A stretch of 63,389 nt of DNA, counting the filler, from Sphacelaria rigidula (Eukaryota), in the NCBI GenBank assembly GCA_964200075.2. It is 3 parts of 3 records of this genome, joined end to end, with 100 filler letters (N's around TTAATTAATTAA, not from the genome) between each part and the next. Parts side by side here need not be neighbours in the genome. Positions count along the whole stretch, not along the records: positions 1 to 21,091 come from CAXNAA020000467.1; 2 more parts are not named here. One strand, written 5' to 3'. The translations under genes and the position numbers were made by a program. Below the pieces are notes generated by a model that was not told the origin of the DNA, made no database searches, and saw only the letters and a list, made by a program, of their open reading frames with translations. Within the stretch, counting starts at the first letter, position 1, and every line of letters starts with the position of its first letter. Shown piece by piece: positions 1,099-20,765 of this stretch.

Positions 1099-3167
1099 AT
1101 GTACCTTGTTTGATATGCAGCAAGTCAATCTTGCCAAAACACGCAGCGCCTAGCACGTCGATCATCTCCGCCTCGTGGTTAGACATGACATTCGGAACCT
1201 TCTCAATCTGCTTGTTTACCGCGCGATAATTACTCACCAGTCGATAACCGCCCTTCTTCGGCGTCGCCATGGCCGCACTCGCCCACTTTGCCTGTAAGCT
1301 GCGGAAAACGAGTCCAAGCGCCACCAGCGTCGCCATACACCCTGCTAACCACGAGGCCTTTACAGGGAAATACACCCGCGGGCTCGCCTTGACTGCACAA
1401 TCCCCAGGTTTGAATCTCACCTTCAATGGCTCTACACAAGCAGGCGGATCACCGCCCAATGCTCGCCGTAAGCGTTGACACGTCGCCCAACAACCTCCCG
1501 AAGCTTATCAATGCCGCTTGCCGACATACCCTTGTCCGCAGCCGCCTGTACGGCATGATCCAATGCACCACGACGCTCTGCCAGCTCCTCCTCTGGAGTC
1601 ATGTTCATCTCGGGACCTCGCGACATCAATCGCTCAACGGAGGGATCCACAGGCTCCTCTTGCCCACCTGGATCCTGTAACGCCTCAATCGCAATGCTCA
1701 CACGCCTACATTCTCGAAATTCAGGCGTATCTACACCTCTTACCAACGCGTGTCTTGAGCGTGCGCATGCGTCCAGCCCACAATACACATCAATGCCCGT
1801 AGCCTCCAGCGTACCGCTCCCGATGATCACCACATCATCGGCATCTGGCATTACCACACAATGACACGGATCCAGCACCACCGGCCCCCAGCTGGTGTGC
1901 ATAGCGGTGCGCACTAGGCACGTCTCCGACTGCATACTCCGTACATTACCATCAGCTAGTTTCAACGGGTGTGCACGACCTATGCTCGTGACAACTCGCA
2001 CATCAGGGAACATTGCTTGCAACTGGTCCGCCACTTTCTCAGACATGATAGTGATGCAAGCCCCCGAATCCAAAACTGCAGTAACAGGGCAAACGTTCTT
2101 GGCTGTGGAACTAAGAACGGACAAGTCTGCCCGGCAGCATCGCTGCTTGCGATCAACTACCATCCTCTCAGCCTGTAAATCTGCAACCTCAGCGGTGTGC
2201 AGACAACTAACACACCCTCGGCCTGTAAATCTACAACCTCAGCGGTGTGCAGAGCCCGCCATATCGGCGTTGTCTGAGACGTCCACTCCTGAGCCGGTCC
2301 CGACAGCAGATGGGGTTGAGCTGCAGGAGTTGGAGCGGAAGGCTGGGGCGGCACCATGCTGTCCGCACTACTAACACCTCCTTGCGTTCCATCCCCTGGA
2401 AAAATAGCCCGTGTGGGAGCAGGACCTTTACTGCCCCCCCGCTGACCATGAACCTATTGCAGCTGCTGCTGGTGCTGCGGCGGCGGCGGCGGCGACGGCG
2501 GCGACTTTGCTTGCCCACCTGACGCACTCACCGCGGCCGCTGATGTGCTCTGTTTGTTACAGTACTTCTTACAATGGCCCTTATCGCCACCCTCGAAACA
2601 ACCTGCATAGCTCAGACCAGGTTTGTGGGGATTTTTCGAGCTCTTACCGCCACTAACCGCTGCGGCGGCCGCAGCCGCTGCGCCGGCATTCGATGCCAGT
2701 TTTTCGAGCCTCGTGAGCCGCTTTTTTGCCTGACTTGCGGTTGCTGGCGGCGGTGTTTATCAACCACCTCAACAGTCTTCCATTTTTCGGCTAAGTCATG
2801 AGCTACCTCATGAACCACTCTCGGGCTCTCATTCCAGTCCCTTTTCATATAGAGCATATTGAACTATATTCTTGAACTCAGGTGGGGTCAGGCCGGCGCC
2901 AATAGATAGCTCTGGTAATAATGTGTGCTTGACCAGCCTTGAACGTACGGTCAGATTCAAGGAAAACGCACTCCGCACCTACATTTTCCGCGGAGTTCTC
3001 CTGTAATGAACTCCACTGCCCTTCTACTCGACCCATTGCAGTTGGTTCAGACCGTACGGCAAGAACCTTTTTGTTGCCTGCTGCAGCTTCGGAAGGATCA
3101 ATTTCTGTACCGATCCAGCATTTGGCGTGGCGTGTAATCCCTTGCTGCAATTTGTCTTCGTCGAGTG

Positions 3168-3448
3168 TGTAAAGTAGTCCATCTCCAGAACACGTACGTG
3201 CAGGCTTATGATGATCTACAAGTGTAACAATCTGCTGTATACGTTTTCTATTGGTTGACGGGACTTTCGGGTCTGATCGGCAGACTATGTGGATTTGAAC
3301 ATTACATGCTTCACGCATGTGGTTACTTCCGATAGCCAAGGCTGTGTGTTTATGAACAACACCTGTCTTGAAATCTCCAGGCTCTAGTGAGGGAGGAAGC
3401 CCTTGGAGCAATCTTGTCACCTTGTTCTGAGTCCAGGAGGGCTCAATA
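3168..3448 (+). repeat. 5' LTR of A1 (family A)
   Basis: Homologous to 11297-11575, 15407-15688 and 19664-19944. Begins TGT and ends ATA. Confidence 0.9.
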
Positions 3449-4760
3449 ATATACGTTTATGAAGAGGAACCCGCTGGTTTTTAGGAGAGGTTTTTCAGTT
3501 GTGGGCAGCTGCGGAGAAATCATATCATACTTTGTACACACGAGTGTGCACCCTGTAAAGTGAGGGAGCTCGCTGACAAAGGAGAAACGGCTAGGTTGGC
3601 TGGAACTGTTGCGTGCAGCTATGGCAACGCGCAAGAAAGTGGGTGATGGCGATGCAGGCGAAGAGGTGAAGTTGAAGTTTACGGAGCTTATGCCTGCAGG
3701 ATCGCTGAAAGCCCCAGAGTACGGACGGCGTTTGAGCGAAAATGCGTCCCGACGTTTTGATCAGAAATACGTCGAGTATGAAGAGGCGGTCAAGTTGAAC
3801 AACAAGGGACGTAGCATGTAGGCCGTCTTACTGACTGTTACTGAACTGATGCCGAAGCACATTCGTGAGTATCTCTCACGCACGATTTTTGACGGGTCCG
3901 TGCTTGCCGAAGACGATCTCAAGGAGGCAGTAGGCCGACATGCGACATGTTGGCAGGATGAAGAGATTGACCCTTCAGTAGCTGCCGCTGGTGTGCGGAA
4001 AGCGTTGGCGGCCCGCAATGAGTAAACTACAATGGGAAGAGTAGAAGGGCAGTGGATATTTGACATGAGAATGTTTTGCGGAGAACGCTAGCGCCGAGCG
4101 TGCATTCGGCGATATTGCAACTTTCAAACCAGGACCCGCTCAAATCATAACTCGGGAAATGTTGAATGAGCTCACCCCCCCGAATTCAAAACCAAAGTCC
4201 TCAATATGTTGAACATGAAAGGGGGGTGGAAGGAGGACCCTGGGCTTGTGTATACTACGGCTCGGGAAGCAGCGGAGGCATGGAAGACGGTGGAAGCGGT
4301 GGATAAGCAGCGCTATTAGCAGCAGCAGCTGAAACAAAATAGTAGCAGTGGGACTTCCGGAAGCAAGCGCCAACCAAATGATGGAAAAACGGCGAGCAGT
4401 GCAAATGGGACTGCCAGTTCCGGGAAAACCCGAAAACCGGGCCCAAACTATGCAGGATGTTTCATATGTGGAGGCAAGGGCCATTTCCGGAAGGATTGCA
4501 AGCAGCAAGGCCAGGCTGCTGCTACACAAGGTAGTGACGGTGTGCAGACAAAGGCTGGCGACAAGCAGCAACAACAACAGCAAGCAGTGAATTGGTTGCG
4601 GACGTCTCTTCCGCGCCTTGCTGAACTGATGGAGCCACTTCGTCTCCTGCTCGAGGAGCAAATGGTGGGCAACGTGCGCCGTACAAAGCGGGTTGCTTCA
4701 AACAGGACAATCAAGGAGGCGGCGTGGACGTATGAGCGTGCGCAACCTTGGACAGCGGCG

Positions 4761-7700
4761 TGTAGACTTCTGTCGCTCACGATCAGGTTGCCATGTGGAC
4801 TCCTCCCATCACGGGCACATGGACTTCAGCAGCTTTAGTTATTCATATATTAACCTTCTGGATAGTACAGGAGAACAGGACCTCACCCTCTCTCCACCGG
4901 AGTGGCAAAATCAAGCCTACTCGTCATGGAGGTCACCATAACAGAGTCCGGCCATCAGACCCGCAACTCCACCTACAAATGTCCCTAGGTAACAATGGTG
5001 GCTAGACTCTACAGCACCCCCAAAGCTCTCTACCACCAACAAGTAGTTATATCAGAGCTTGACAAACTCAGACATCATTGGTGCCTGATAGTACGTTTCC
5101 TCAAAGATTAGCAATCTCTTCCGCTGCTTTCGACAACAGCTCCATACAAGCTAGCCTCACTTCCGAACAACTCGCAAGAGGTCCCAAGAAAATATCGTCC
5201 ATCATGAACATGCAATCACGCTACTTGCACCACTTCGAGTTACAAAGCGACAGCTAACGCCGAATTCTCGAATGTTCGCCCACAACAAGTTCCTTGACTC
5301 TTCATCGGCTCGAAACCGGAAATGTCAGCAAACGTCAAATTCCAGAGCATTCGTGACTCATCGTCCCTCTCATCCGAGAACAGGTACGTCTCAACATACA
5401 AAATGCACTCTTTGTATGTTCAACACCTGAGCAACGGAGTGCAACAGCCAACTGACACATCATCTTCACGCTAGAAGGAAATATGCACCCAAAACGTCTA
5501 AAACGCACCTGGCCTCTTGCTTCTGCAACGGCGTATAAAACGTATGCATCGCATGCCTCCCCGCCGTCAAAGCTTCAATGCTTCAACTTGCCTTCATTTT
5601 ATCCAGACAATCAAAGGAAAGCCGAGGGTCAAACCGCTTTTCAAAGTCATGCATACTAATCCAACGACGGCGAACGGACCTCGACCTCCGCCATCAATGA
5701 TCACCCCTCGTGAGCTCGTCCTTGAACTCTCGTTTTCGAGCAAATCCCAGACATTTCTATATCTCGTTTGGAACTTGGACCGTCATATCCCATCTGTGTG
5801 CATCAGTCAAAATGTAAAAATGATGAATTCCTCGACACCCTTGCAGTCCACCTGCACCAGTTCTTCGAACAATTGGACGCATCATCCACATGCTCGTTCT
5901 GACATGAACGAAAAACCAACCACGTGATCGTTCAAACACCTGACAATCCATACAAAAACGTGCCACGGTCAAAGATCATTGATGCATGGGCTCATAATGT
6001 CTTTATCTTCAACTACCGGAAGCACTCGCGTCATACCTGCTCTCATACGACGAGCTTGCGCATTTTGTACCTTTCAGCTCATTTTTACGCTAACAGCAGC
6101 AATCCATATATCCTGCAGTCAGTACGTGCAAACCGCACAAAGTTGGTTCGACTGTGTTCCTGCGCGAACAAGATTATACGAGCTTCTCTTCAATTAGCAT
6201 ACAGCAGTATTTTGAAAACTGCCCCACCCTACGTCGTCACCAGATACCATTCATACCAGTACCATTCGAGCAAAAATTCGCACATACCTGCCAAATTTCC
6301 ACTCAGCATATGAAAATCTGTACATGCATGCCAATATTTTACTCAGCACATGCAATGCCACCTTCCTCGCAGCAAACACCATGCATCGTCCGTGCCAACC
6401 AGACCAGCACAACACACACATGCCAAATATCCACGTGTACACCAGAGTTACACCCTGCACACGCGATACGATCATACTCGCTCAACAACCATGTTTGATG
6501 CGCGAACATGACCACAAACCACACAATAACAAGCTGCAACCATTCTCAAAACGATTCGCGAATCCCAGTCATAATGTGTTTCCTCATTCTCAACAAGCAC
6601 TTAATCACCACAGCACTTGCTCCTCAACATCAGTACCCAACTCGACGCTCACCACAACAGCAAACACCTCAGGTAATGCCTTTTTTGTAGTCCTCCAGCC
6701 CGCTTTTGAGAAACAGCAGCACTCCAACCACAACCCCGTGCACAGCGTAGAGCAGCGTTTCCACTCGGGCACTCCCTCCTTGCACCCTCAGTCTAGCTAC
6801 ACCTGGCACCCCCATGGTGTAGCTCAACATGCCTCTAAAAGGTATACTCGCACCGCCAAACCAATGCGATAAATCCTCCGCCCCCGCAGATGCTTGCGCA
6901 TCCACGAACGCTCGTTCTTGAGTCGCTTTTCAGAGGAAACAAGACGCGAAACGGGAACAGCCACACAGTTCCGCACAACAACACCTCCCGATGGCATCAG
7001 GCCATTCTCCTCCAGCACCTGACCGTACAGCGGCAAATACACCGCAGCCAAGGCCGCCAAATACGCCAAACCTGTCCATGCATACAGCAGTGCATACGAC
7101 CACCCCAACACCATGCGACGCTCGTCAAGGCGTGTCCACAGCTACGCGCTGCTCCGGCGGCGATTCCGCCAACCCGGCGTCCACCTGTCCTTCAAGTAGA
7201 CACCCCTGCGAATCATCTGAACGATCTCCCGCCATGTCACTGACGCAGATAGATTCGCCATGAACACGGCAAGCCCCGAGCTCACCCTGCTCGCTCGCCA
7301 TACACGAATAACACCCCCCTGCAGTTGCGAGCATGCAAGGAGTATCTCCAGCTACGTGCTCGTCCGGCGGCAATTCCGCCAACCCGGCATCCACCCGTCC
7401 TTCAAACAGACACCCCTGCGAATCATCTGAACGATCTCCCGCCCTGTCACTGGCGCAGATAGATTCACCATGAGCACGGCAAGCTCCGAGCTCACCCTGC
7501 TCGCTTGCGATACGGGAATAACACCCCCTTGCAGCTTCGAGCATGCAAGGAGTATCTCCAGCTACGCGCTGGTCCGGCGGCAACAAGCAACTGGGACCTC
7601 CGCTCACCAGTACTTGCTCATTGTCCCATGTAGGCCCCGGTCTCTCAAAATCGCCAACAGCAGCAACAGCATCACCCATACTCGCTACAGCCGCCACCTC

Positions 7701-9185
7701 CCGCTCAGCGCACTCTTGAACTGCAATAGCGTCAGCTGAGCGGCCTGCAGTCTGCTCGAGCGGTGGACATATTCGTCCTTTCCAGCAGCAATACCAGCGG
7801 CATCTAAACCAATGCTTACCGTGGTACTTTCGGCGGGCGCGTTCCCATGCCTCCCCGCTTTGACAGACACGTGCTGTGTTTCCTTCCCGCTCTGCACAGA
7901 GGAAACAGCTGCCCTGTATCGTGCTTTAAGACGCGCCCTACCGAATGTACGTTCGGCAGGTGTACTATCGCGCCTGTCCCCTCGGGCAGACACATGCTTT
8001 TCGGCTTTCACATGGCGAGCATCTGCCCTGTATCGTTGTTTCAAACGCGCAGCACCTCCTACTGCACGTTCGGCGGGCAAATACATGCTTCTCGGCTGCC
8101 ACAGTGCAATGCGTCCCACCGGACGGCGCATGCTTGCGCAACGCGAAAAGCAACTGCTCGTCCTCAACATCATCATCATGCTTCAAGAACGTGTCACACA
8201 GACATTTCGCAATATGTTTCGGTATGAGCTCAGAAATTGCTGCCACCTCAAAGAGGTTTGTCCACCGCGCGTCCACCTGATCTACATCTCGCGAATATTG
8301 CTCGTATTTGCGTAAAAACTCGGCCGATTTCTCGCTCGAAAACTTGCGGCCGTAGTACGGCATCTCCAGCGCCAGTACAGGAACAATATACGACCATCGA
8401 CGATGACATATTCCTGCGTCTCATCCATTTCGGTCAGCGGTACAAGTACTCCAGACCGCCGTTTTGAAAATTAAAGTTGCCTCCCACTCACAGGAACAAC
8501 AACTCTCTCCTTACACCGAGACGCGCCGTACCACTTTACAACAACAATGGCCACAGCGCCTCGTCCTCACGCAGGTCTCACCATGAGTTTGAAGTTCTTA
8601 GATTCCTCTTCCTGGCCGTACCTGGCCAGGCGTGGAACACGCAACCCTCGCTGGCTCCACTATTAGGCAGTACGGTAATTGCGCCGCTTTTCTGGAACGC
8701 GCACAGGCTCGCCAGCTGTCGGTCAACCCCCCCGCACCTCTCGCACGAGCGAAACCACAGCCCACCCCAGCACTGCCTCAGAACCTCCTCGGCTCTACTT
8801 CTCCAACTCCTCGTGACGTTAACACGCCTTGAGCTAGTCTTGTTTGCTGCAAACTGATCAGGCCTGCAGACTTCCCTATTTTGAAGTGTCAGCTTTTTTC
8901 AGCGGGTCTACTGCCATCAGCGGACTTAATGAACGTTTATTGTAGACTTCTGTCACTCAAGATCAGATTGCCATGTGGACTCCTCCCATCACAAGCACAT
9001 GGACTTCAGCAGCTGTAGTTATTCATATGTTAACCCTCAGCATAGTACAGGAGAACAGGACCATAGCCTCTCTCCACCAGAGTAGCAAGACCGGGCCTAC
9101 TCGTCATGGAGATCACCATCACAGAGTCTGGCCTTCAGACCCGCAACTAAATGTCCCTAGGTAACAATGGGGGCTAGAGTCTACA
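4761..9185 (-). mobile_element. Non-autonomous gag-only LTR retrotransposon B (TR-GAG/LARD-like), TSD GGCG
   Basis: LTRs 4761-5012 and 8941-9185 (TGTAGA...TCTACA), with GGCG at 4757-4760 and 9186-9189. The host pol peptide WTAA/AQDLVAHAVAL is split at exactly this site. PPT-like tttgggggtgc abuts 5012 on the minus strand. Gag at ~8430-8130; no recognisable RT or RNase H. Confidence 0.9.
7135..7585. repeat. Tandem ~210-bp repeat (about 2 units) inside element B
   Basis: tccggcggc recurs at ~7153, ~7363 and ~7573. The first two units are near-identical over most of their length. Confidence 0.85.
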
Positions 9186-10845
9186 GGCGCAAGATTTGGT
9201 GGCACATGCTGTTGCTCTGTCACATCCCTAGGAGGGCTATGAGATGATGATGTTTCCACACGCGTCGGATCTTTATTGAGGTAGTTTCGTGACCCAGCTA
9301 CCGAGAGCTGAATTGGACCGCGATGTAGCGGTGGAGGCCATGAGTCCTGAGCCCCTGGGATTTCTCAGTGGGACGTTTCGAGGAGCGCAGTTGCGGTGGG
9401 GTACGGACAAGGGAGGATATGCCATCGTGAGTATGTTTCGTAGGTTGGAGTACTTTTTGTGGGGAGGAGTGACCATATTTACGGACCATCGCAATCTCGC
9501 TTTCGTTTTTTTTCTCGAAGCATGCGTGACCACACTGGCGAAAACTGCCGCCCAGCGCCTTGAACAATGGAAGACTGTACTCGGGCAATATGATTACTCA
9601 ATCAGGCATATTTTTGGTGAGCGTAAGTGCTGGGGAGATCTACTGTCCCGGTAGGTGAACTTTCCAGCGGCATCCCTGAGAGCCATCGCTGTTTTTGCAA
9701 TTGGAGAGCCTGGTGAGACGCTACTTTTGAAAGAGGCCGTGCGTGCAGCCGAAGAGCAAGCCCGTGAGGGGTTAGGAGGTATGGTTGGTGGGGCCGAGAC
9801 CTTTACTGCCGCTGTTGGGCGTGTCTTCAAAGACGGTGAGGGTGTGTTTCGCGTGCATGTTGCAGGGAGGGATGTACTGTGGATCCCGCCGGAAGCGAGA
9901 GAACTACACACACGCTTGATGGTATGAGCTTACATGAAAGGGGCTGGTCACCGAGGGGTTGTGGCAACGTTACAGCGCTTACCAGAGTATTGTTGTTGGT
10001 TCCGGATGGAGACTCATGTGACTGAGTTTGTGAAGCAGTGCCTGCACTGTTTGGATTCCAAGGCGGGGCACATGGTCCCGCATCGCTTCGGGGAGATGGT
10101 GCATGGTATGCGCCCAGGGGAGGTGCTGCATTTTGATTTTCTCTACGTTGACGAGAGTGCCCCCCTGGGAAATAGTGGCTTGGACGAAGGATACGGGTTC
10201 AAGTAAATATTAATCATGATGGACGATTTGAGCAACTTCGTGTGGTTGGAGCCTGCGGAGTCTTGTACGGCGGCGACGACGTGCTTGACGAAGACGCTTT
10301 GAGGTGACAGGTGACGTCAATCGTTGAGGCTCGGCGAGAGTTGCACAAGAAGGTGGCGCAGCCTGTCGACAAGAATCGCGATCTACAGAGACGTGTGGCT
10401 AGTAAGGTGAAGATTCCTAACTTTGTGGTGGGCGATAACGTGCTGGCGGCGAGGATGAGGCGTTCGGGAACTACGCCGAAGCTTGTGAGTACGTGGACGG
10501 AGCCTTGGCGGATTGTGACCGCGGAACAACAACATGTGTGCGAGGTGCAGAACATTGTGAATGGCGAGGTACAGGATGTGCATGTCGCCCGCCTTCGATT
10601 TTATGCGGACAAGGAGCTGAAGATTGCGACTGATATTAAGGAAGTGTTCCAGAGTATGCTTTTGCACGAGGCGACTTCGATATGGCGGCTGTTGTCGGAA
10701 TATCTGAGGACGAAGCAGGAGATGGATTTTATGTGCAAGGGGAATGGGTCAGCCTTGGCCAAGATGAAAACTCGTGGGAGCCTCTGGAAAATATTTTGGA
10801 CGGAGCCCCACAATTTGTCAAATCTGAGCTGCGTACGTTGGGACT

Positions 10846-10935
10846 TGTGACGGTTTAAGCGACAACCAACTAGACTACTGACCAGTCAGCGCTGACTGGT
10901 CAGTAGTCTAGTTGGTTGTCTCTTAAACCGTCACA
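10846..10935. mobile_element. 90-bp near-perfect palindrome (mini-MITE) inserted in A1
   Basis: tgtgacggtttaag.gacaaccaactagactactgaccagtcagc|gctgactggtcagtagtctagttggttgtc.cttaaaccgtcaca with one mismatched pair and no loop. GACT on both flanks. Confidence 0.85.
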
Positions 10936-11296
10936 GACTACTTAAAAAAGTGCGAGCACGTTTGCAGGCAAAGTATGGTATGAAGCTTGAGAAATATGAT
11001 GATATCTAATGCTACTGGTTGAGATGGTACTATACTTGGCACGTTCGCTTTTGAGAGAATGCTATGCGTGGAAATTACCGTTGAAGAATGGCCGACTTCC
11101 CTGAGTTCGCTTGAGACATTGTCTGTGAGTTTCGATATTCAGGGTTGTGTACGTTATCATTTCTTTGTGGAACATGACAGTACAAGGTCGTATGTCACTA
11201 CCGGGGGGACAAAGGTAGCATAAACGGGATAGTCGGTGTCTACTGTTTTGTCAAACTCGCGTTCTACTTCGAGAAGTGCGGAGTTTTGGCGGGTGC

Positions 11297-11575
11297 TGTA
11301 GATTAGTCCACCTCCAGTACACGTACGTGCCGGTTCATGATGATATACAAGTGGACAATCTGCTGTAGACGTCTTCTATTAGTTGACGGACTCGCGGGTC
11401 TGATCGGCAGAATATCTGGATTTGAACATCACATGCTTCACGCATGTGGTTACTTCCGATCACGAAGACTGTGTGTTTGTGACTAACAACGGTCTTGAAG
11501 TCTCCAAGCCCTAGTGAGGGAGGAAGCCCTTGGAGCAATCTTGTGACCTTGTTCTGAGTCCAGGAGGGCTCTATA
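11297..11575 (+). repeat. 3' LTR of A1 (family A)
   Basis: Follows a PPT-like tract and is followed by TSD AGTG. Confidence 0.9.
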
Positions 11576-12036
11576 AGTGGCAACCCGTCAAAGATGGTGT
11601 CAGACACGCAGTTCTGGATGTGCTTGGGCACCAACTCTTGCATGGTCAAGAGTGCGCACATAACCGACCGGCCTTTGTTACTCTTCCCCACTGCCTTCTC
11701 ATATTCTCGATACTGTTGGTAAAAGCGTCTGGAAGCTTGTTCACTCAATATTCGCCCATATTCAGGCACTTTGAACGATCCACCCAGAGTCAACTTGGTT
11801 TCTGCAGACTTCACCACATCAACCATCTCGCTGGTGCCCCCTTCCCTTCGCGCTGCCATCCTTCCAACAGCCTCCTGTCACCGCAGTCGCCTTGGACTCG
11901 TGTGGCCTGCGCCTCTCTCTCCGCCGCTTTCTCCTCCCCCTGTTATTCGGAGAGAGAGCGACTTTGGTTTGTAGCGGTCGGGTGCGACTTCAGAAACCTA
12001 ATCCAGAAACGACAAGTTTCCTGGATAAACGTCTAT

Positions 12037-12311
12037 TGTGAACCTGTCTGGAATCAGAACAAGGTCACAGTGCTGCGTTAGAGGCTTCCTCCCTGTCACG
12101 GGCTCCAGAGACTTTAATTTAAGACTCAAGCCTTTATACAAGCAGCAGTATTTCGTTGACCAGAAGTGACCCACCCTTCTTTGCTCCCCCCACAAACACA
12201 ATATGTTATGCATTTCATAATCATCCTCCAAACCGTTGTCACACGATCCAAACTGATATCCATATGCTACCGAACTCCTCATGCTGGAGGTGGTACTGTA
12301 CTTTATCCACA
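12037..12311 (-). repeat. 5' LTR of C1 (family C)
   Basis: Reverse-complement homolog of 12747-13013; TGT...CACA termini. Confidence 0.85.
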
Positions 12312-13013
12312 GATATAAAGGAGGTGTTCCAGCATGCATATGTCCAAGGAGAGTTCGAGATGGAGGCAATCGCCGGGATATCTGAGGCTCACGAAGAATT
12401 TGGCTACGAAGTGCGTGTGGAATGGGTAGGTTTCGACGAGGGCGAAAGTTCATGGGACCCGCTGGATGTTATTTGGAGAGGAGCGTCGTAGTTTGTACAA
12501 TCTGCGAAAGTTGAGGCTGAATAAGCAGGTACGGTACGGGAGCGTCTGAAGATTAAGTATGGTATCAAGATATGACTGGTCTTCTGGGTACTTTGTGGAT
12601 GGATTGTATCATGCGATTGGTGTTCGTCGAGTATACCGCTTGGTTATCGTATGATTGTTCTTTGTTGCCATCCGAGATTTGTTGTCGGTGCCTACTGATG
12701 ATCAAGCTCGTTATCTACCGTTGAGTAAGACGTAGCTTGGGGGTGCTGTAGAGAAAGTACAGTACCACCTGTAGCATGAGGAGTACGGTAGCATATGGAT
12801 ATCAGTTTGGACCGTGTGACAACGATTGGAGGATGATGATTGAATGCGCAACATATTGTGTTTGTGAGGGGAACAACGAAGGGTCACTTCTGGTTAACCC
12901 AAGACTGCTGTTTATATAACTGCTTGAGTCTTGAAGTCTCTGGAGCCTGTGACAGGGAGGAAGCCTCTGGAGCGCAGCACTGTAACCTTGTCGAGGTTCC
13001 ACACAGGCTCACA
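12312..13013 (+). mobile_element. 3' end of Ty3/Gypsy element C2: chromodomain, 3' UTR, PPT, 3' LTR (12747-13013)
   Basis: Peptide DIKEVFQHAYVQGEFEMEAIAGISEAHEEFGYEVRVEWVGFDEGESSWDPL (chromodomain pattern), then ttgggggtgc followed by TGTAGAG...CTCACA. Confidence 0.85.
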
Positions 13014-16000
13014 AGCTGTACAAGACTCGATGGGCTCCAACCACGCGAACTTGCATAGATCATTCATCATTACAAATATGCACTTGTACCTGTCGCCTTC
13101 ATCCAGGCCGCTCTCGCCCAGCGGACCACTTTCGCCAACGTACAGATAATCAAAATGCATCACCTCACCGGGCCGTGTGCCACGCACTACCTCTCCTAGT
13201 GGCCGCGGGACCGTCTTACCCGCTTTCGAGCTCACACAATGCAAGCATTTCCTCACTGAATCTGTCACATGAGCTTCCATCTGAAACCAACAGCAATACT
13301 CTTGCAGCCGCTGCAGTGTCGCCAGAACACCCCGATGGCCTCTTTCATTTGAGTACACACCATCAAGCGTGTTTGCAGCTCTTTTGCTTACGGCGGGATC
13401 CACAACACATTCCCCCCTGCTACATGCACGTGAAATAAACCCCCCACCGTCTTTCGAACTCGCCGCCCAACAGCTGCTCCAAAAGTAGGGGCTCCAGCAT
13501 CCATCACTTCGAACCCGGCTTGAGCCTGCTCTTGGGCACTCACGAATAGCGTTCTTCGACGGCGGCGTTTCATCAGGCTGACCGCTCGCGAAGACGGCCG
13601 CAGCACACGCAGACACCGCCGGAATGTTGACCCACCTTGATCATAAATCTCCCCAGCAGTTGCGCCCACCAGCAATGTGTCTGATGGAGTGATAGTACTG
13701 CCCGAGCACAGCCTTCCATTGCTCGGACCTGATCGCACAGCCTTCCTTGTCCACCGTAGCCCACCAAACCTGTGCTCCACAAAACGTTGCGCTAAGAAAC
13801 CCCATGGGCTCATATCTTCCACCGCCAATGTACCACCCAGCTCATCCTCCGGTACCTGCGTAAGAAAACTTCCCCAGTGTAGATCCGATGCGTCTGGAAA
13901 CATGAGAGCCGCATACCCCCTGCTTGGGATATGACACAGCGACAGCATGCGCCACCAAATCTTGCGCCTCGTGCCACGCCTGAGCACGCCTGGACGTCCA
14001 TGCCGACTCCTCGATTGTCCGGTTTGACGCCACTCGCTTGGTACGGCGCACGTTTCTCTGCATGTATTCCTTCAGTAATATTTGCAGCGGCTCCACCGCC
14101 TTCACCAAACGCGGCAGGGGTGTTCTCAGCCAGTTTACCGCCTACAGGAACTGCATAAGCTCACCTGCTGTGCGCGGGAGCCAAAAGGTAGGCCAGTCCG
14201 CTCAGTCTCTCGCGGTCATAAGCCACTTGACCACCTGAAAAGACCTTTCCGCACCACGTGATCTATGTGTCGTACAACATGCACTTGTGCGCAGCCGCAA
14301 AAAAACCAGCATCCTCGAAACGGTCCAAAATCTCGTCTAGTGTACACAACAGATCACCCTCATCTTTACCCCACCACAAGATATCACCCACCCATACTTT
14401 GCATTGAAGTCCGGTCAATAATCCTGACATGATGCCTTGAAAATACCCCGTCGCATTCAACACCCCTTGCGGCACCCGTGTGGGGGTGAACAGGCCTTCA
14501 GGAGTCGCGATCGTGAAACTTTCTCGTGCATCAGCCGCCCATGGCATCTGCCAGTAACCCTGCAGCAAGTCAATCTTGCCAAAACACGCAGCGCCTAGCA
14601 GGTCGATCATCTCGGCCTCGTGGTTAGACATGACATTCGGAACCTTCTCAATCTGCTTGTTGACCGCGTGATAGCCACTCACCAGTCGATAACCGCCCTT
14701 CTTCGGCGTCGCCATGGTCGCACTCGCCCACACCGCCTGTAAACTGCGGAAGACGAGCCCAAGCGCCACCAGCGTCGCCATACACCCTGTTAACCACGCG
14801 GCTTTTACAGGGGAATACACCCGCGGGCTCGCCTTCACTGCTTTAGCCCCAGGTTTGAATCTCACCCTCAGTGGCTCTACACGCAGGCGCAGTGCTCGCC
14901 GAAAAGCGTTGACACGTCGCCCAACAACCTCCCGAAGCTGATCACCGCCGCTTGCCGACATACCCTCGTCCGCAGCCGCCTGTACGGCATGATCCAATGC
15001 AACACAATGCTTTGCCAGCTCCTCCTGTGGAGCCATGTTCATCTCGGGACCACGCGACATCAATCACTCAACGGAGGAATCCACAGGCTCCTCTTGTCCA
15101 CCTGGATCCTGTAACGCCTAAATCACAATGCTCACACGCCTACATTCTCGGAATTCAGGCGTATCTACACCTCTTACCAACGCGTGTCTTGAGCGCGCGC
15201 ATGCGTCTAGCCCACTGTAGACGTCAATGCCCATGGCCTACAGCGTACCGCTCCCGATGATCACCACATCATCGGCACCTGGCATCACCACACAATGACA
15301 CGGATCCAATACCACCGGCCCCCAGCTGATGTGCAGAGCGATGGGCACTAGGCACGTCTCCGACTACATACTCCGTACATTACCATCAGCTAGTTTCACC
15401 GGGTGTTGTAGAGTAGTCCACCTCCAGTACACGTACGTGCAGGTTTATGATGATATACAAGTGTAACAATCTGCTGTAGGCGTTTTCTATATTGGTTGAC
15501 AGACTTGCGGGTCTGTTCGGCAGAATATCTGGATTTGAACATCACATGCTTCACGCATGTGGTTACTTCCGATAACGAAGGCTGTGTCTTTATCAATAAC
15601 AACTGTCTTGAAGTCTCCAGGCCCTAGTGAGGGAGGAAGCCCTTGGAGCAATCTTGTGACCTTGTCCTGAGTCCACGAGGGCTCTATAATAAACGTTTAT
15701 GAAGAGGAACCCGCTGGTTTCTGTACGAGGGTTTTTAGCTGTGGGCAGCAGCGGAGAAATTATATCAAAATTTGTACACAGAAGTGTGCACTCTGTAAAG
15801 TTAGGGAGCTGGTTGGCAACGAAGAGACGGCTAAGTTGGCTGGAACTGTTACGTGCAGCTATGGCAACGCGCAAGAAAGTGGGTGATGGCGATGCAGCCC
15901 AAGAGGTGAAGTTTAAGTTTACTAAGCTTATGCCTGCAGGATCACTGAAAGCCCCAGAGTACGGACGGCATTTGAGCGAAAATGCGTCCCGACATTTCTA

Positions 16001-19000
16001 TCAGAAATACGTCGAGTATGAAGGGGCGGTCAAAATGAACAACAAAGGACGTAGCATGCAGGCCGTCTTACTGACTGTTGCTGAACTGGTGCCGAAGACA
16101 TCCGTGCGTGTTTCTCACGCGCGATCTTTGATGGATCCGTGCTTGACGAAGACGATCTCAAGGTGGCAGTAGGCCACCATGTGACACGTTGGCAGGATGA
16201 GGAGATTGATCCTTCAGTTGCTGTTGGTTGTGTGCAGAAAGCGTTGGCGGCCCGCAACGCGCAAATTACAATGGGAAGAGTAGAAGGGCTGTGGGGTGCC
16301 CTGGAGAATTGTTTTGCGGAGAATACTAGCGCCGAGCGTGCGTTCCGCGATGATGCCGATTTCAAACCAGGACCCGCTCAAATCATAACTCGGGAAAGGT
16401 TGAATGGACCGACCCCCCCCCCCGCATTCAAAACTAAAGTCCTCAACATGTTGAACATGAAAGGGGGGTGGAAGGAGGACCCTGGGCTTGTGTATCACAC
16501 GGCTCGGGAAGCAGCGGAGGCATGGAAAACGGTGGAAGCAGCGGATAAGCAGCGCCGTCAGCAGCCGCAGCTGAAACAAAATGGTAGCAGTGGGACTTCC
16601 GGAAGCAAGCGCCAACTAAATGGTGGAAAAACGGCAAGCAGTGCAAATGGGACTGCCAGTGCCGGGAAAACCCGAAAACCGGGCCCACACAATGCAGGAT
16701 GCTTCATATGTGGAAATAAGGGCCATTTCCGGAAGGATTGCAAGCAGCAAGGCCAGGCAGGTGCTACACAACGCAGTGACGGTGGGCAAACGAAGGCTGG
16801 CGACAAGCAGCAGCAACAACAGCAGCTGTCGTAGGGCCCTGCACAGGTGCCTCGCGGAGGGGGCACGAGTCCCGCTCCTGAAAGGGCTGTCTTTTCAGCC
16901 GATGGACAACGTGCTCCCAGCGGGGGGGCGACGTTGCCACCAGAACCGGTCGCTTCTGGTGGTGGCGTGCAGCAGACCATCTCATCGCAGTCGTTCCCGG
17001 GTTCGAACTCTGCGGCGGTGCCAGCATGGCGATCGCTCAAAGCGGGTGAGGTGTCAGATTTTCAATCTGAGGGTCTGCAAGTAGATCACAAGGAAAGGTG
17101 GTGTCTTGCCGATTTGTCTGTCCTGAGTACAGGGGCAAAGGGTGTTTGTCCGGTCATGGCTATTTTAGATTCAGGATCTGGACTTACGACCATGTCAGCT
17201 GGTGTGGCGGCGAAATTGCAAGCCATGGTGCCAGATGTCCAAGTGGTGAACAGTTGGTGAAATTGGCAAATGGCAATGTTGAGCGCGTGAAGTAGAAACC
17301 TTGCCCTGTCCGCATCGCTTTACACACCAGCTGGGGACCGGTTGTGCTGGACCCATGCTCCTATGCGGTCATGCCGGATACAGATGATGTGATCACCATG
17401 GGGAGATCTAAGCTGGAGGCGCTGGGCATTGACGTATGCAGTAGTTTAGGTACCTGAGCACGTGCGAGAAACACTTCGGTGCGAGGTGTAAACACACCTG
17501 ATTTTACGGACTGTCGGCGTGTCAGTACGGCGGTTGACGCCTTACAGCAACCAGGAGATCGGGCGGAGCCCGTTTATTCCTCAGTCGAGCGGTTGTTGTC
17601 GAGAAGTCCGGCGATGAGCATATCCCCGGAACAAGAGCTTTTTGAGCTTGATGTTGCGCCGGAGGAGGCAGTACAAGCCGCCGCAGGTAACGGCATATTG
17701 GATAGCGACGTGAGCCATATTCGTGAGCCTGTACGGAAGAGAGCGAGCATTTTTAGGCGAGTGCTGCATGGTTATCCGCCTGATCGCGTCGAGCCCTTGA
17801 ACGTGAAATTCAAACCTGCTGCTGTGGAGGCAAAGGCTCGGCCGAGGGCGTACTTTCCGGTCAGGATGGCGTGGTTGGCACGCTGTATCGCAACATTGGT
17901 GGCGCTCGGGCTCGTGTACTGCAGTTTGCAGGTAAAGTGGGCGAGAGCGGCTATTGCAACGCTCAAGAAGTCCTGTTTTCGCTGGATGAGTGCATACAAG
18001 GCGGGGGAGGAAGTTTCCCGTCACCACAAGGAGGTGGTGCATGGTGCCCGCCCAGGGACGGAGTTTCATTTCAATTTTCTCAGTGTTGGCGAGGGTGGTC
18101 CGCTGGGAGATAATGGCTTGGACAAAGGAGATCGGTCCAAGTACATATTGGTAAGGATGGATGACCCGGGCGACTTCGTGCGGTTGGAGCCCACGGAGTC
18201 TTGTACGGTACCAACGACGGCGAAGCATCTGTTGACGTGGTGCAAAGCGCTGGGACCGCAGGAGGGATGGGTCAGCGATACGGTATCGCAATATAATAAT
18301 TGTGTGGTGAGAGTGCTCAAGAAGGTGCTGATGGGTCGCAGATTCGTGGTGGCCAACTCGTAGTTGTCACATCGTGAACGTGAGCGAATGGTGCGTGACA
18401 TTGTTCGTGCCTTGAAGGTCATAATTCAGAGAGGAAGACTCGGTGCCAAGGCCTGGGTGGGTTTGGTACCTTCCGTGCAGTGGGTATTGCACACTGGTTT
18501 TCGGGACAGCTGTGAAAGCTGTAGTTGCATCTATTGGAGTGGAAATGCTACTCTACGGTGTGGACGAGATTGTAGCCGGAGAGCTGCTGTTTCTCAGGAG
18601 GAGCGCAGGAGAATTACAAGGCAGGCAATACCTTCGGTGCTCGATGTTGCGGTGAATGCCGGGTTGGGTGATGTTAAGGAGCAAGTACAAGTGAAATTGC
18701 TTGTTGAGAATGAGGAAGCACATTGTGACTTTTATACCTGAATCATTTTGTGGACGATTGTAGGTGGTGGTGGTATGGTTCCTGGATCTGTGTCTTGTGT
18801 TGCGCTAGTTGGCACGCATGATACATGGTGGTTTCTGCGAAGAAGCTGCTGAGTGAAATATGAGCATGCAGGTGTGACTGATGTCCATGGTGTCTGATGA
18901 AGAGTCAGAGTGAGGCAGTTTCCAATACACTGCTGTGTGCTGAATGAAATAAAGCTCTTGTATTATCGTTCGCGCAAAAAGTGGAATCATCTTTGTGCGG

Positions 19001-20765
19001 TTTGCAGAAACTGACTGTAGGAGATGGTGATTGCTGCTGCTGGCGTGAAAATGAGCGGAAACTACGAAATGCGTCGTAGGCTTGTATGTGAACAAGTATA
19101 ACGTGAGTATTTCCAGAGGTTGACGAAAAACAAATCGTACGCGAATACAGTGATTTCTTACTGTGAAACATCTTTGATGGCTTGTCATGTGTTTGGATAA
19201 GCGCATAGATGGTGTTTCGCATCTGCAAAACGGAGAATGTGGATGGTGTGCCCATTTTTCTGGAAGGAGCACCGCATATTTGTTCTGAGCTACTTTAGTT
19301 GGAACTGAGTCAAATGGTGCGGGCACGGTTGTAGGCAAAGTAAGGTATCAACCTTTGAGTGCATGGTATGGTTGAATGCTACGGTTCGAAATGGTATTTT
19401 CCTCGGCGCGTTTGCTTTGTGTGAGCATGCCACGACTGGAAATTACCGTTGAATAAGTTATTGACGTCAGTAAATTCGATTGAGACGCTGTGTTCAAGTG
19501 TCGTTGTTCAGCGCTTTGTGAATGATAATTTTCTTTGTGAACCTGACATAGCATGGTCATGTGTCACCAACAGGCGGACAAAGGTAGCATGAGCGTGTTT
19601 GTCGGTATCTACTGTTTATCAAACTCGCTTTCTACTTCGAGTAGTGTGGAGTTTTGGGGGTGCTGTAGAGTAATCCACCTCCAGTACACGTACGTGCAGG
19701 TTCATGATGATATACAAGTGGAACAATCTGCTGCAGGCATCTTCGATTGGTTGACGGACTTGCGGGTCTGATCGGTAGACTCTGTGAATTTGAATATCAC
19801 ATGCTTAACGCATGTGGTTACTTCCGATAACGAAGGCTGTGTGTTCATGAATAACAACTGTCATGAAGTCTCCAGGCCCGTGTGAGGGAGGAAGCCCTTG
19901 GAGCAAATCTTGTGACTTTTTTCTGAGTCCAGGAGGGCTCCATAGTGTGCACGAGCCATGCGCGTGACAACTGGCACATCAGGGAACACTGCTTGCGATC
20001 GGTCCGCCACTTTTTCAGACATGATAGTGATGCCAGCTCCTGAATCCAAAACGCCAGTAATAGGGCAAACGTTCTTGGCTGTGGAACCAGGAACAGACAA
20101 GTGTGCCCGGCAGCATCGCTGCTTGCGGTCAACTACCATACCCTCAGCCTGTATATCTGCAACCTCAGCGGTGTGAAGACCCCGCAATACCGGCGTTGTC
20201 TGAGACGTCCACTCCTGAGCCGGTCCCGCCGGCAGTTGGGGTTGAGCTGCAGGAGCTGGCGCGGAAGGCTGGGGCGGCACCATGCTATCCGCACTACTAG
20301 CACCCCCCTGCGTTCCATGCCCTGGGAAAACAGCCCGTGTGGGAACAGGATCATTACTGTCCCCCCGCTGACCATGAACCTGTTGCAGCTGCTGCTGGTG
20401 CTGCGGCGGCGACGGCGACGACTTTGCTTGCCCACCTGACGCACTCACCGCGACCGCAGGTGTGCTCTGTTTGTTACAGCTCTTCTTGTAGTGGCCCTTA
20501 TCGCCACACTCCAAAACAACCTGCATAGCTCGGACCAGGTTTGTGGGGCTTTTTCCAGTTCTTACCGCCACTACCCGCTGCGGCGGCCGCAGCCGCTGCG
20601 CCGGCATTCGATGCCAGTTTTTCGAGCCTTGTGGGCCGCTTTTTTCATAAGTTGCGGATGCTGCCGGCGGTGTTTGTCAACCTCCTCAACAGTCTTCCAT
20701 TTTTCCGCCATGTCATGAGCTACCCCACGAACCACTCTCAGGCTCTCTTTCCAGTCCCTTTTCAT
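13014..20765 (-). mobile_element. Decayed Ty3/Gypsy element C3 (gag end, protease, RT, RNase H, integrase), interrupted by A2
   Basis: ECGDKGHYKKSC and GVLDSGA at 19945-20600. RT FGKIDLLQGYWQMP/TPTRVPQG at 14263-15063. RNase H FPDASDLHWG at ~13880. Integrase GHRG..CLHC..HFDYL at 13014-13340. Highly similar to C1. Confidence 0.9.
15407..19944 (+). mobile_element. Ty3/Gypsy element A2, internally deleted, TSD GTGT
   Basis: LTRs 15407-15688 and 19664-19944, with GTGT at 15403-15406 and 19945-19948. The paralogous empty site reads cgggtgtgcacg at ~1966. Gag from 15861 with CFICGNKGHFRKDC, protease ILDSGS at ~17165, RT start fused to integrase core at ~18000, PPT-like ttttgggggtgc. Confidence 0.92.

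What the first reader, a model, noticed from the sequence alone, without database searches (positions are those of the whole stretch)
11450..11575. Covarying RNA structure shared by the 3' half of all three LTR families
Seen: TGAAGT-[P1]-[P2 hairpin with TG(A) loop]-AGGA(A)G-[P1'], followed by CAA(T/C)CT in A and B. A: ctccaag ccct agtg aggg aggaagcc cttggag. B (minus, 4761-5012): ccatgtg cccg tga tggg aggagtc cacatgg. C (12931-12975): ctctggag cctg tga cagg gaggaagc ctctggag (G-U pairs). Stem sequences differ but still pair, while linkers are conserved. Extra upstream stems occur in A and C (acttc/gaagt and aagact/ggtctt or agtctt). The motif sits ~40 nt before the palindromic PBS. Inference: a functional structured RNA (RT/primer-positioning element, packaging signal or possibly a self-cleaving motif) acting with the palindrome. 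It does not match the hammerhead, HDV, twister or pistol consensus as I know them.
Basis: partly seen in the sequence, partly recalled or inferred. Interest (0 to 1): 0.7.

Follow-up and report, generated by a model that had tools for sequence, protein, structure and literature searches.

The report
Conserved leader hairpin in retrotransposon LTRs
Three related families of decayed gypsy-type retrotransposons share, near the end of their long terminal repeats, a short stem whose two sides changed together while a purine-rich stretch inside it stayed fixed; it is most likely a control hairpin of the element's RNA, an expected kind of feature and not a new class of RNA.

Summary
The motif is real. 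All 8 LTR copies in the window (families A x4, B x2, C x2) carry TGAAGT, a 7-8 bp stem P1, an 18-20 nt conserved purine-rich interior (GTGA...GGGAGGA) and P1'. P1 pairs in 56 of 58 cells on the sense strand and 51 of 58 on the antisense strand. Six of its 7 shared positions change on both sides between families. Per-family shuffle p is 0.01-0.02, and the helix sits in the same register in all three families.

Several parts of the claim are weaker. P2 is 3-4 bp and shows no double changes in the tool count. The upstream stems occur only in A and C and do not covary. Single-sequence folds are no more stable than shuffles. Covariation rests on 2-3 lineages, and I could fetch no further copies.

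Rfam gives nothing, even at E<=10, so a known ribozyme family is not supported. A Tf1-type self-primer and a GalEa-type second arm were tested and not found.

Best reading (0.45): a cis-acting hairpin of the R/U5 leader RNA that displays an unpaired purine run to Gag-NC or RT, for packaging or the start of reverse transcription. The transcription start is unknown. The adjacent 12-nt palindrome, which lacks the TGG of a tRNA site, remains unexplained.

The parts
11496..11541 (+). Motif, copy A2 (the finding). TGAAGT 11496-11501; P1 5' arm 11502-11508; interior 11509-11528, holding P2 11509-11512/11517-11520 and linker AGGAAGCC 11521-11528; P1 3' arm 11529-11535; CAATCT 11536-11541.
   Evidence: 69.4 bits; 7 of 7 Watson-Crick pairs
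3369..3414 (+). Motif, copy A1 (TGAAAT variant; P2 has one C to T change that keeps a G-U pair)
   Evidence: (64.7 bits)
15609..15654 (+). Motif, copy A3 (5' LTR of the 15407-19944 element)
   Evidence: (70.1 bits)
19864..19910 (+). Motif, copy A4 (innermost P2 pair broken; one A inserted after P1')
   Evidence: (66.7 bits)
4785..4828 (-). Motif, copy B1: P1 arms CCATGTG/CACATGG, interior 18 nt
   Evidence: (52.1 bits)
8965..9008 (-). Motif, copy B2 (5' LTR; P2 arm CTTG keeps pairing only through G-U)
   Evidence: (56.6 bits)
12932..12978 (+). Motif, copy C1: P1 arms CTCTGGAG/CTCTGGAG, 8 pairs of which 2 are G-U
   Evidence: (51.8 bits)
12072..12116 (-). Motif, copy C2: P1 has 2 adjacent mismatches; the 5 inner pairs are kept
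   Evidence: (51.0 bits)
11297..11575 (+). LTR A2 (3' LTR), preceded by the purine tract GGCGGGTGC. The 4-bp target duplication AGTG flanks the A1...A2 element (3164-3167 and 11576-11579).
   Evidence: sequence read; joint 3163>11576
15407..15688 (+). LTR A3 (5' LTR). The AT-rich box TTTATCAATAAC at 15589-15600 ends 8 nt before TGAAGT.
15689..15700 (+). 12-nt palindrome ATAAACGTTTAT directly after the 5' LTR, at the place of a primer binding site but without TGG. Other copies: 3449-3460 (+), 8929-8940 (-), 12025-12036 (-).
   Evidence: 12-bp self-duplex, -12.3 kcal/mol
16085..16831 (+). gag reading frame of the A3 element with a CCHC zinc knuckle. The first in-frame-looking ATG lies 173 nt after the start of the palindrome.
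   Evidence: (PF00098, E 4e-5)
11448..11501 (+). Tentative upstream pairings in A and C only. ACTTC 11452-11456 pairs with GAAGT 11497-11501; AAGACT 11465-11470 pairs with GGTCTT 11491-11496, enclosing the AT-rich box. GGTTAC 11448-11453 pairs with GTGACC 11543-11548.
   Evidence: RNAalifold on 6 A and C copies; covariation term only -0.08 kcal/mol

Best explanation
The motif is a cis-acting hairpin in the sense-strand RNA of the retrotransposon, in the R/U5 part of the LTR that forms the 5' leader of the genomic RNA.

A 7-8 bp stem (P1) is free to change in sequence as long as it pairs. It closes an 18-20 nt interior whose sequence is fixed (GUGA, then GGGAGGA(A)G). The stem's job is to hold this purine run unpaired and exposed.

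The likely reader of that run is an element-encoded protein: the CCHC zinc-knuckle (nucleocapsid) part of Gag for selecting or dimerising the RNA, or reverse transcriptase when DNA synthesis starts at the palindromic site 30-40 nt downstream.

Shown: the motif, its conservation, the covarying stem and the strand preference. Inferred: that it is transcribed as part of the leader, and what binds it.
For: (1) All 8 of 8 LTR copies from three families carry the motif. The model built from them finds nothing else in the window.

(2) P1 stays paired although A, B and C use different arms. 56 of 58 cells pair, and 6 of 7 shared positions change on both sides. 0 of 500 shuffles reach the observed pairing or covariation score. 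Per-family shuffle p is 0.012, 0.012 and 0.022, with the helix starting at the same offset after TGAAGT in all three families.

(3) Strand. The 6 G-U pairs become A-C mismatches on the other strand, giving 51 of 58 paired there. This points to the sense RNA.

(4) Constraint. Within families, 14 of 138 motif columns vary against 139 of 682 elsewhere in the LTRs (Fisher p 0.004). Between families, the interior GTGA and GGGAGGA are invariant in 8 of 8 copies.

(5) Place. The motif lies in the 3' part of the LTR. Only 30-40 nt remain between P1' and the LTR end, so a start site downstream of it would leave a very short R+U5. The LTR ends are fixed by 4-bp target duplications.

(6) The elements encode Gag with a CCHC knuckle. 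That such knuckles prefer exposed guanines is established knowledge, recalled and not tested here.

(7) The abstract start of PMC8096270 (search listing) names a purine loop plus the primer binding site as the determinants of MMTV RNA packaging. This is a parallel, not evidence.
Against: - No transcription start or polyA site is known for these elements, so the motif's place in R, U5 or even U3 is inferred.
- The 8 single-sequence folds are no more stable than shuffled sequences (z from -0.14 to +1.62).
- The covariation comes from only three lineages. A and C share part of their arms, so two events may explain it. Template switching during replication can create or refresh perfect inverted repeats without selection (recalled, not tested).
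- P2 is not supported by covariation.
- The conserved unpaired letters could equally be DNA-level promoter or processing signals.
- No partner sequence or protein was tested. No conserved complement to TGAAGTC or to the purine run exists in the four leaders.
- All copies are old and decayed, with 17-20% of LTR columns variable within families.
Confidence: 0.45

Rival explanations
1. It is an R-region hairpin concerned with the ends of the transcript, not with protein recognition. One version: a 5'-terminal stem just after the start site, of the TAR or R-hairpin type, which helps first-strand transfer or protects the 5' end. The other version: a structure just downstream of the polyA signal that controls use of that signal in the 5' versus the 3' LTR.
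For: An AT-rich box (TTTATCAATAAC in A3, ATATATGAATAAC in B, TTTATATAAC in C1) is conserved 8-10 nt before TGAAGT in all three families. It could be a TATA box, putting the start near TGAAGT, or an AAUAAA-like signal, putting cleavage near TGAAGT. In A and C this box sits in the loop of a possible 5-6 bp stem. Passages of PMC3601003 link residual conservation in R regions to stem-loops.
Against: No start or polyA site is mapped. The upstream stem is absent in B and does not covary. This reading explains the stem but not why the 18-20 nt interior is sequence-invariant across families.
Confidence: 0.2
2. The conserved letters are DNA-level signals of the LTR promoter or terminator, such as an initiator or downstream promoter or factor sites in TGAAGTC and GGGAGGAAGCC. 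The inverted repeat is incidental, or is made and refreshed by template-switch mutation. On this reading no RNA structure is selected.
For: The best-conserved parts are the unpaired ones (TGAAGTC, GTGA, GGGAGGA). The hairpin is thermodynamically unremarkable. Only 2-3 independent lineages support the covariation. The slide -1 control keeps a similar covariation score, 0.338 against 0.370.
Against: Three different arm pairs all pair in the same register. Percentage paired falls from 88.1 to 66.7 or less in every slid control. G-U pairs favour one strand. Chance matches to the same linkers lack such a helix: 0 of 18 have 7 bp or more with at least 6 Watson-Crick pairs.
Confidence: 0.2
3. It is a small self-cleaving ribozyme in the LTR, as in plant retrozymes. 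It would cut the transcript near the primer site.
For: The only points in favour are a conserved core with variable stems and a non-tRNA primer site nearby that calls for some unusual chemistry.
Against: No Rfam family reaches gathering score in the window, and none touches the motif at E<=10. The motif is one bulged hairpin with no three-way junction or pseudoknot partner found. Ribozyme cleavage leaves a 2',3'-cyclic phosphate, which cannot prime DNA synthesis (established chemistry, recalled).
Confidence: 0.03
4. The motif has no function. It is shared ancestry among three related LTR families, and the pairing is a leftover.
For: The families are clearly homologous across the 3' half of the LTR, and all copies are decayed.
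Against: B's arms differ from A's at 5 of 7 positions on both sides and are still perfectly complementary. Motif columns vary half as often as the rest of the LTR.
Confidence: 0.12

Closest known systems
U5-IR stem-loop of retroviruses and of the self-priming retrotransposon Tf1, part of the Tf1 'pretzel' leader
   Same: A short stem formed by an inverted repeat in the transcribed 3' part of the LTR, upstream of the primer site, closing a fairly large loop. It occurs in an element without a tRNA-type primer site. The three-duplex pretzel is described in passages of PMC10085805. The figures '7-bp stem, 25-nt loop' for Tf1 are recalled from Lin and Levin 1998, which is not held.
   Different: In the pretzel, each flanking duplex uses a sequence adjacent to the primer site, and the central duplex joins the primer site to the mRNA 5' end. 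Here P1' ends 30-40 nt before the palindrome, and no LTR segment is significantly complementary to it.
Purine-rich Gag-binding packaging motifs of retroviruses (the MMTV single-stranded purine loop with its primer-site palindrome; the HIV-1 SL1 internal loop)
   Same: An unpaired purine run held between helices in the 5' leader, with a palindrome at or near the primer site, in an element whose Gag has a zinc knuckle.
   Different: There is no sequence relation and no binding data. The MMTV case rests on the title and abstract start in a search listing (PMC8096270 and PMC4264320). The HIV-1 case is recalled.
Conserved Hairpin Site of fungal GalEa (Copia) retrotransposons
   Same: A conserved palindrome sits directly after the 5' LTR where a primer site is expected, with no tRNA match and no known mechanism (passages of PMC5445492). 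This concerns the neighbouring palindrome, not the P1/P2 motif itself.
   Different: GalEa has a 9-bp palindrome plus a second complementary block 12-41 bp downstream. Here the palindrome is 12 nt and no downstream complement exists. The superfamily also differs: Ty3/gypsy domain set and order.
R-region hairpins (HIV-1 TAR and polyA hairpins) and the generic LTR plan of TATA, R stem-loops and AATAAA
   Same: A hairpin just downstream of an AT-rich box in the 3' part of an LTR. PMC3601003 (passages) ties conservation in R to stem-loops.
   Different: There is no Tat-like system and no mapped R. TAR and the polyA hairpin are recalled, not tested.
Hammerhead ribozymes in the LTRs of plant retrozymes
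   Same: A structured RNA inside an LTR of a non-autonomous-looking element.
   Different: No hammerhead or other ribozyme model matches. Retrozymes themselves are recalled.

Membership tests
Tf1/sushi-type self-priming leader ('pretzel' with U5-IR stem) | [quoted passage not shown] | tested here: not met
   The best LTR complement to the 12-mer scores 8-9 of 12. Shuffled LTRs reach this in 529/2000 (A3), 1696/2000 (A2), 345/2000 (B1) and 1706/2000 (C1) trials. The copies are decayed, so a lost match cannot be excluded.
Tf1/sushi-type self-priming leader ('pretzel' with U5-IR stem) | The flanking duplexes are formed between LTR sequences and sequences directly adjacent to the primer site (PMC10085805) | tested here: not met
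   P1' ends 40 nt (A3) or about 30 nt (B2) upstream of the palindrome, and both P1 arms lie inside the LTR.
Tf1/sushi-type self-priming leader ('pretzel' with U5-IR stem) | No tRNA-type primer site (no TGG... after the LTR) | tested here: met
   The four 5' LTRs are followed by ATATACGTTTAT, ATAAACGTTTAT, ATAAACGTTCAT and ATAGACGTTTAT. No tRNA-like 3'-end complement was seen by eye in the next 40 nt. No tRNA set of the host was available to test against.
Known self-cleaving ribozyme families (hammerhead, HDV, twister, pistol, hatchet and others in Rfam 15) | A match to the family covariance model | tested here: not met
   0 matches at gathering score in 63,389 bases. At E<=10 over 3000-20100 there are 4 weak matches, none at any of the 8 motifs and none to a ribozyme family.
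GalEa-type Conserved Hairpin Site (for the adjacent palindrome) | A palindrome immediately after the 5' LTR | tested here: met
   A 12-nt palindrome starts at the first base after the LTR in 4 of 4 5' LTRs. It is perfect in A3 and has one or two deviations in A1, B2 and C2.
GalEa-type Conserved Hairpin Site (for the adjacent palindrome) | A second conserved block 12-41 bp downstream, complementary to the palindrome | tested here: not met
   The best downstream complement is 7-8 of 12 with scattered mismatches, at different places in each leader.
Retroviral-type Gag-binding purine motif | An unpaired purine run presented by flanking helices in the leader, and a Gag with a zinc knuckle | tested here: inconclusive
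   The run GGGAGGA(A)G is invariant and lies between P2 and P1' in the model. CCHC knuckles are found at 16085-16831 and 4320-4835. The unpaired state is predicted, not probed, and whether the motif lies in the leader depends on an unmapped start site.
Retroviral-type Gag-binding purine motif | Specific binding of Gag or NC, and a packaging defect on mutation | not testable with these tools
   This needs a bench assay.
Ty3/gypsy (Metaviridae-like) LTR retrotransposon, as host of the motif | LTRs with TG...CA ends, a purine tract, target duplication, gag CCHC, and protease-RT-RNase H-integrase | tested here: met
   LTR alignment, purine tracts and ends; 4-bp duplications AGTG and GTGT read. Pfam hits in the nest as a whole: PF13975, PF00078, PF17917, PF17921, PF00098. 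Full-length relatives carry RT-RNaseH-integrase, and some carry a chromodomain.

The most novel reading that the evidence does not exclude
The hairpin and the 12-nt palindrome that replaces a tRNA primer site are two parts of an undescribed way of starting reverse transcription in a marine (stramenopile-like) lineage of gypsy elements.

In this reading, two genomic RNAs pair through the palindrome. The covarying stem with its fixed purine interior docks RT/RNase H or nucleocapsid. A cut in the RNA-RNA duplex, as RNase H makes in Tf1, frees a 3' end, so that one leader primes DNA synthesis on the other. This would be priming in trans by the partner genome, with neither a tRNA nor a Tf1-type fold-back.
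Probability: 0.08. Interest if true: 0.8.

Novelty: new variant of a known kind. Interest (0 to 1): 0.38.

Why it matters
Cis-acting leader hairpins are a standard part of retroviruses and LTR retrotransposons. A conserved, covarying stem in the R/U5 part of an LTR is therefore expected biology, and a specialist would not be surprised by it.

Two things make it worth recording. First, the host lineage is uncharacterised. Its closest reverse transcriptases are in unnamed marine contigs and a brown alga, and my searches listed no paper on the primer sites of such elements.

Second, the motif sits 30-40 nt from a palindromic, non-tRNA site at the position of the primer binding site. A comparable palindrome in fungal GalEa elements has stood without a mechanism since 2017 (PMC5445492).

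The families are very abundant in the source organism: 19,021 and 24,851 contigs were laid from runs X5 and X6. A proper covariation test and end mapping are therefore feasible, and could make the question of how these elements prime directly testable.

Tried and rejected
MORE COPIES FOR A COVARIATION TEST: NONE OBTAINED.
- No whole genome is held for the window.
- Earlier notes of this scan returned nothing by place, sequence or words.
- Viral contigs, searched with the RT fragment, with gag and with a 7-protein alignment, gave no relatives.
- The metagenome scan with the linker-only pattern gave 22 loci. All are chance matches in unrelated, mostly prokaryote-like DNA, so I used them only as a null set.
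- Genome contigs gave two short contaminant contigs in MAGs, neither with an LTR 3' half.
- In those two MAGs, the protein alignment found more distant elements, the RNA model found nothing, and the palindrome pattern matched at the level of the reversed-pattern control. One contig inspected was unrelated.
- L036 is a distant element with an ordinary TGG-type site, so it is no help for this motif.

EXPRESSION AND TRANSCRIPT ENDS.
- No RNA holder was listed.
- The four runs laid were contigs only, so no start, end or strand could be read.

FOLDS AND PAIRINGS THAT LED NOWHERE.
- Folds of the whole LTR 3' half plus leader gave a different structure for each family.
- The segment between P1' and the LTR end folds differently in A, B and C.
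- Pairing of the purine linker with the upstream block ACTTCC/ACTCC is 5 bp in each family. I estimate that about 0.4 of cases would show this by chance, so I rejected it as evidence.
- A GNRA-tetraloop reading of the invariant GUGA was rejected, because no family closes it with a standard pair.
- Hammerhead-like letters in B (GUGAUGG) were rejected: there is no stem II/GAAA arrangement and no Rfam hit.
- A near-copy of the palindrome lies in the A-family LTR around LTR position 70. It gives 9-10 bp with G-U pairs but is not significant against shuffles and is absent from B and C.

PAPERS NOT HELD.
Lin and Levin 1998, Lin and Levin 1997b, Levin 1995, and Esnault and Levin 2015.

CORRECTED SLIP.
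One search used a wrong index for copy C2. One search corrects it.

Full report
WHAT THE WINDOW HOLDS

Bases 1-21,000 are a nest of decayed Ty3/gypsy-type LTR retrotransposons. Pfam finds a gag zinc knuckle, aspartyl protease, reverse transcriptase, RNase H and the integrase zinc domain in broken reading frames on both strands.

Repeat finding, pattern scans and alignment define eight LTR copies in three families:
- Family A: 3168-3448, 11297-11575, 15407-15688 and 19664-19944, all on the + strand.
- Family B: 5013 to 4767 and 9185 to 8941, on the - strand.
- Family C: 12747 to about 13008 on the + strand, and 12312 to 12037 on the - strand.

The LTRs begin TGTAGAG and end (C/T)A. The 3' LTRs follow a purine tract GGGGGTGC. 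The two A elements are flanked by 4-bp duplications, AGTG and GTGT, which fixes the LTR ends.

Each of the four 5' LTRs is followed directly by a 12-nt palindrome, ATAAACGTTTAT or a one- or two-letter variant of it. It has no TGG.

The nearest reverse transcriptases, at 56-63% identity, are on unnamed marine contigs. Another hit (P0017, 51% identity) is from a brown alga. Some relatives carry a chromodomain. The chromodomain-like fragment I read by eye at 12330-12490 was not detected by Pfam. No whole genome is held for the window.

THE OBSERVATION

All eight LTRs carry the same layout:
- TGAAGT, exact in 6 of 8 copies.
- A 7-bp (A, B) or 8-bp (C) stem, P1.
- An interior of 20 (A), 18 (B) or 19 (C) nt that contains the invariant GTGA and GGGAGGA.
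- The P1 3' arm.
- Then CAATCT or CAACCT in A and B.

A covariance model built from the eight copies scores them at 51-70 bits and finds nothing else in the window; the next hit scores 12.8 bits at E 0.34.

A hand alignment by structure gives 50 Watson-Crick, 6 G-U and 2 mismatched cells out of 58 in P1, both mismatches being in the decayed copy C2. Pair 1 is invariant. Pairs 2-7 each show standard pairs that differ on both sides between families. B's arms (CCATGTG/CACATGG) differ from A's (CTCCARG/CTTGGAG) at five of seven positions on each side and are perfectly complementary.

IS IT MORE THAN CHANCE?

- When the motif letters after TGAAGT are shuffled, a helix as long and as Watson-Crick-rich, with generous freedom of position, appears in 241 of 20,000 (A2), 235 of 20,000 (B1) and 443 of 20,000 (C1) trials. 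In the real sequences the helix also begins at the same offset in all three families.
- As an empirical null I used the 18 distinct chance matches to the linker-only pattern in metagenomes. Two have a helix of 7 bp or more, and none has 7 bp or more with at least 6 Watson-Crick pairs.
- The tool count on the model-fitted alignment, which gaps part of B, gives 96.2% paired cells for P1. Three of its 7 pairs change on both sides, and 0 of 500 shuffles reach the observed percentage paired or covariation score. Sliding the partner by one to three columns drops pairing from 88.1% to 66.7% or lower, although the -1 slide keeps a similar covariation score (0.338 against 0.370).
- Within families, 14 of 138 motif columns vary against 139 of 682 elsewhere in the LTRs (Fisher p 0.004).
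- On the opposite strand the six G-U pairs become A-C, leaving 51 of 58 cells paired.

WHAT DID NOT HOLD UP

- P2 is 3-4 bp, 75% paired, and shows no pair changed on both sides in the tool count. By hand, only C1 swaps C-G for U-A, while A4 and C2 break a pair.
- The upstream stems exist in A and C only, vary on one side only, and carry a covariation term of just -0.08 kcal/mol in RNAalifold on those six copies.
- Each motif folded on its own is no more stable than shuffles, with z from -0.14 to +1.62.
- The covariation comes from three lineages. A and C share the outer three pairs, so two events could account for all of it.
- I could not enlarge the sample. Viral contigs, one metagenome scan, prokaryote genome contigs and two MAGs with contaminant relatives gave no further LTR of this kind.

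TESTS OF NAMED MECHANISMS

Ribozyme. No Rfam family reaches its gathering score anywhere in the window. At E<=10 over 3000-20100 the four weak matches lie elsewhere and are not ribozymes.

Tf1-type self-priming. This needs a primer site complementary to the mRNA 5' end, plus duplexes that use sequences adjacent to the primer site (passages of PMC10085805; of PMC7175516).
- The best LTR complement to the palindrome is reached by 17-85% of shuffled LTRs.
- Both P1 arms lie inside the LTR, 30-40 nt from the palindrome.

GalEa-type site. This is a palindrome after the LTR plus a complementary block 12-41 bp further on (passages of PMC5445492). The first feature is met and the second is not.

tRNA priming. 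There is no TGG, and I saw no tRNA-like 3'-end complement in the next 40 nt. The host's tRNAs were not available to test against.

HOW IT MOST LIKELY WORKS

The pattern is arms free to change while they pair, an interior fixed in sequence, and a preference for one strand. This is what a recognition hairpin in an RNA looks like: the stem is scaffolding and the unpaired letters are the ligand.

The motif lies in the cross-family-conserved 3' part of the LTR. It is downstream of an AT-rich box that ends 8-10 nt before TGAAGT. Only 30-40 nt remain before the LTR end, so a start site beyond the motif would leave an unusually short R+U5.

I therefore place the motif in the 5' leader of the genomic RNA. 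This is an inference, with odds of about 0.85. I read it as a site where Gag's CCHC knuckle or the reverse transcriptase engages the RNA, for packaging or dimer selection, or for setting up initiation at the palindrome downstream.

What is shown: the motif, the covarying P1, the strand bias and the lower variability.

RIVALS

- A hairpin of R tied to strand transfer or to polyA-signal control. This rival depends on whether the AT box is a TATA box or a polyA signal.
- DNA-level promoter signals, with an incidental or template-switch-made inverted repeat.
- A ribozyme.
- Plain shared ancestry without function.

Their evidence and odds are given in the Rival explanations section.

COMPARISON WITH WHAT IS KNOWN

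In working principle the motif is closest to two things:
- The U5-IR stem-loop of retroviruses and Tf1.
- The purine-rich Gag-binding motifs of retroviral leaders. For MMTV I saw only the title and abstract start in a search listing. The HIV-1 SL1 case and the Tf1 stem and loop sizes are recalled.

It is not a member of the Tf1 pretzel, since two defining features were tested and not met. It is not a member of any Rfam family.

PMC3601003 (passages) and PMC6317226 (passages) show that stem-loops in R/U5 and non-tRNA priming are established themes. [quoted passage not shown]

My four literature searches listed no paper that describes this motif or the primer sites of stramenopile gypsy elements. 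I did not search the supplements of those papers.

VERDICT

The finding is a real, modestly supported, covarying stem that presents a conserved purine-rich interior in the LTR leader of an uncharacterised retrotransposon lineage. It is a new variant of a known kind of element. The specific function is not shown, the ribozyme idea is not supported, and the link to the neighbouring palindrome is open.

The decisive data are a large LTR alignment from the source genome and mapped transcript ends. Both are feasible, because the families are very abundant there.

Noticed in passing
window 15689-15700 (+), 3449-3460 (+), 8929-8940 (-), 12025-12036 (-): A 12-nt palindrome (ATAAACGTTTAT and variants) sits directly after every 5' LTR, where a primer binding site belongs. 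It has no TGG. It can form a 12-bp self-duplex (-12.3 kcal/mol for A3, -11.7 for C2). No significant complement exists in the LTR or downstream. The priming mechanism is unexplained.
   Followed up: partly
window 15407-19944 and 3168-11575: The A-type elements are short: 4.5 kb, and about 4 kb once a 4.4-kb B-type insertion at about 4757-9185 is removed. They have 4-bp target duplications, GTGT and AGTG. In 15407-19944, Pfam finds only the gag zinc knuckle among reading frames of 120 aa or more. They are either very decayed or non-autonomous.
   Followed up: partly
window 11448-11453 with 11543-11548, and the equivalents in the other A and C copies: RNAalifold on the A and C copies pairs GGTYAC, upstream of the AT-rich box, with GTGACC, downstream of P1'. 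This would enclose both hairpins in one multibranch fold. U-G in A becomes C-G in C2, but C1 and A1 break the pair. B was not tested in this alignment.
   Followed up: partly
window 12972: About half of the C-like contig depth in runs X5 and X6 lacks 2 letters here (12 and 13 contigs). This fits GCGC shortened to GC just after P1', which would leave the stem intact. The contig sequences themselves could not be read.
   Followed up: no
L036 (G001:C128), 1-7292: A 7.2-kb contig in a bacterial MAG with identical 51-nt ends is a complete, distant gypsy-type element. Its purine tract and LTR start are similar (GGGGGGTGA|TGTAAAT), but an ordinary TGG-type site (TGGCGTCGAATCGG) follows the LTR. The palindromic site is therefore not general among relatives. 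The contig looks like eukaryotic contamination of the bin.
   Followed up: partly
window 41026-41450 / 41491-41915, and 37231-37441 / 37465-37675: Two large near-perfect inverted repeats: 425 nt at 93% with a 40-nt spacer, and 211 nt at 85% with a 23-nt spacer. Both have a foldback-like structure.
   Followed up: no
window 26913-27324 and 32106-32518: A 95-100% identical direct repeat about 5.2 kb apart brackets a 540-aa open frame (27604-29226) that has no Pfam family. It is not an LTR of the A/B/C kind.
   Followed up: partly
window 371-712 and 7126-7545: Tandem repeats of 114 nt (3 copies) and 210 nt (2 copies) lie inside the retrotransposon nest. Long inverted copies of 48-1097 are found at 7479-8386.
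   Followed up: no
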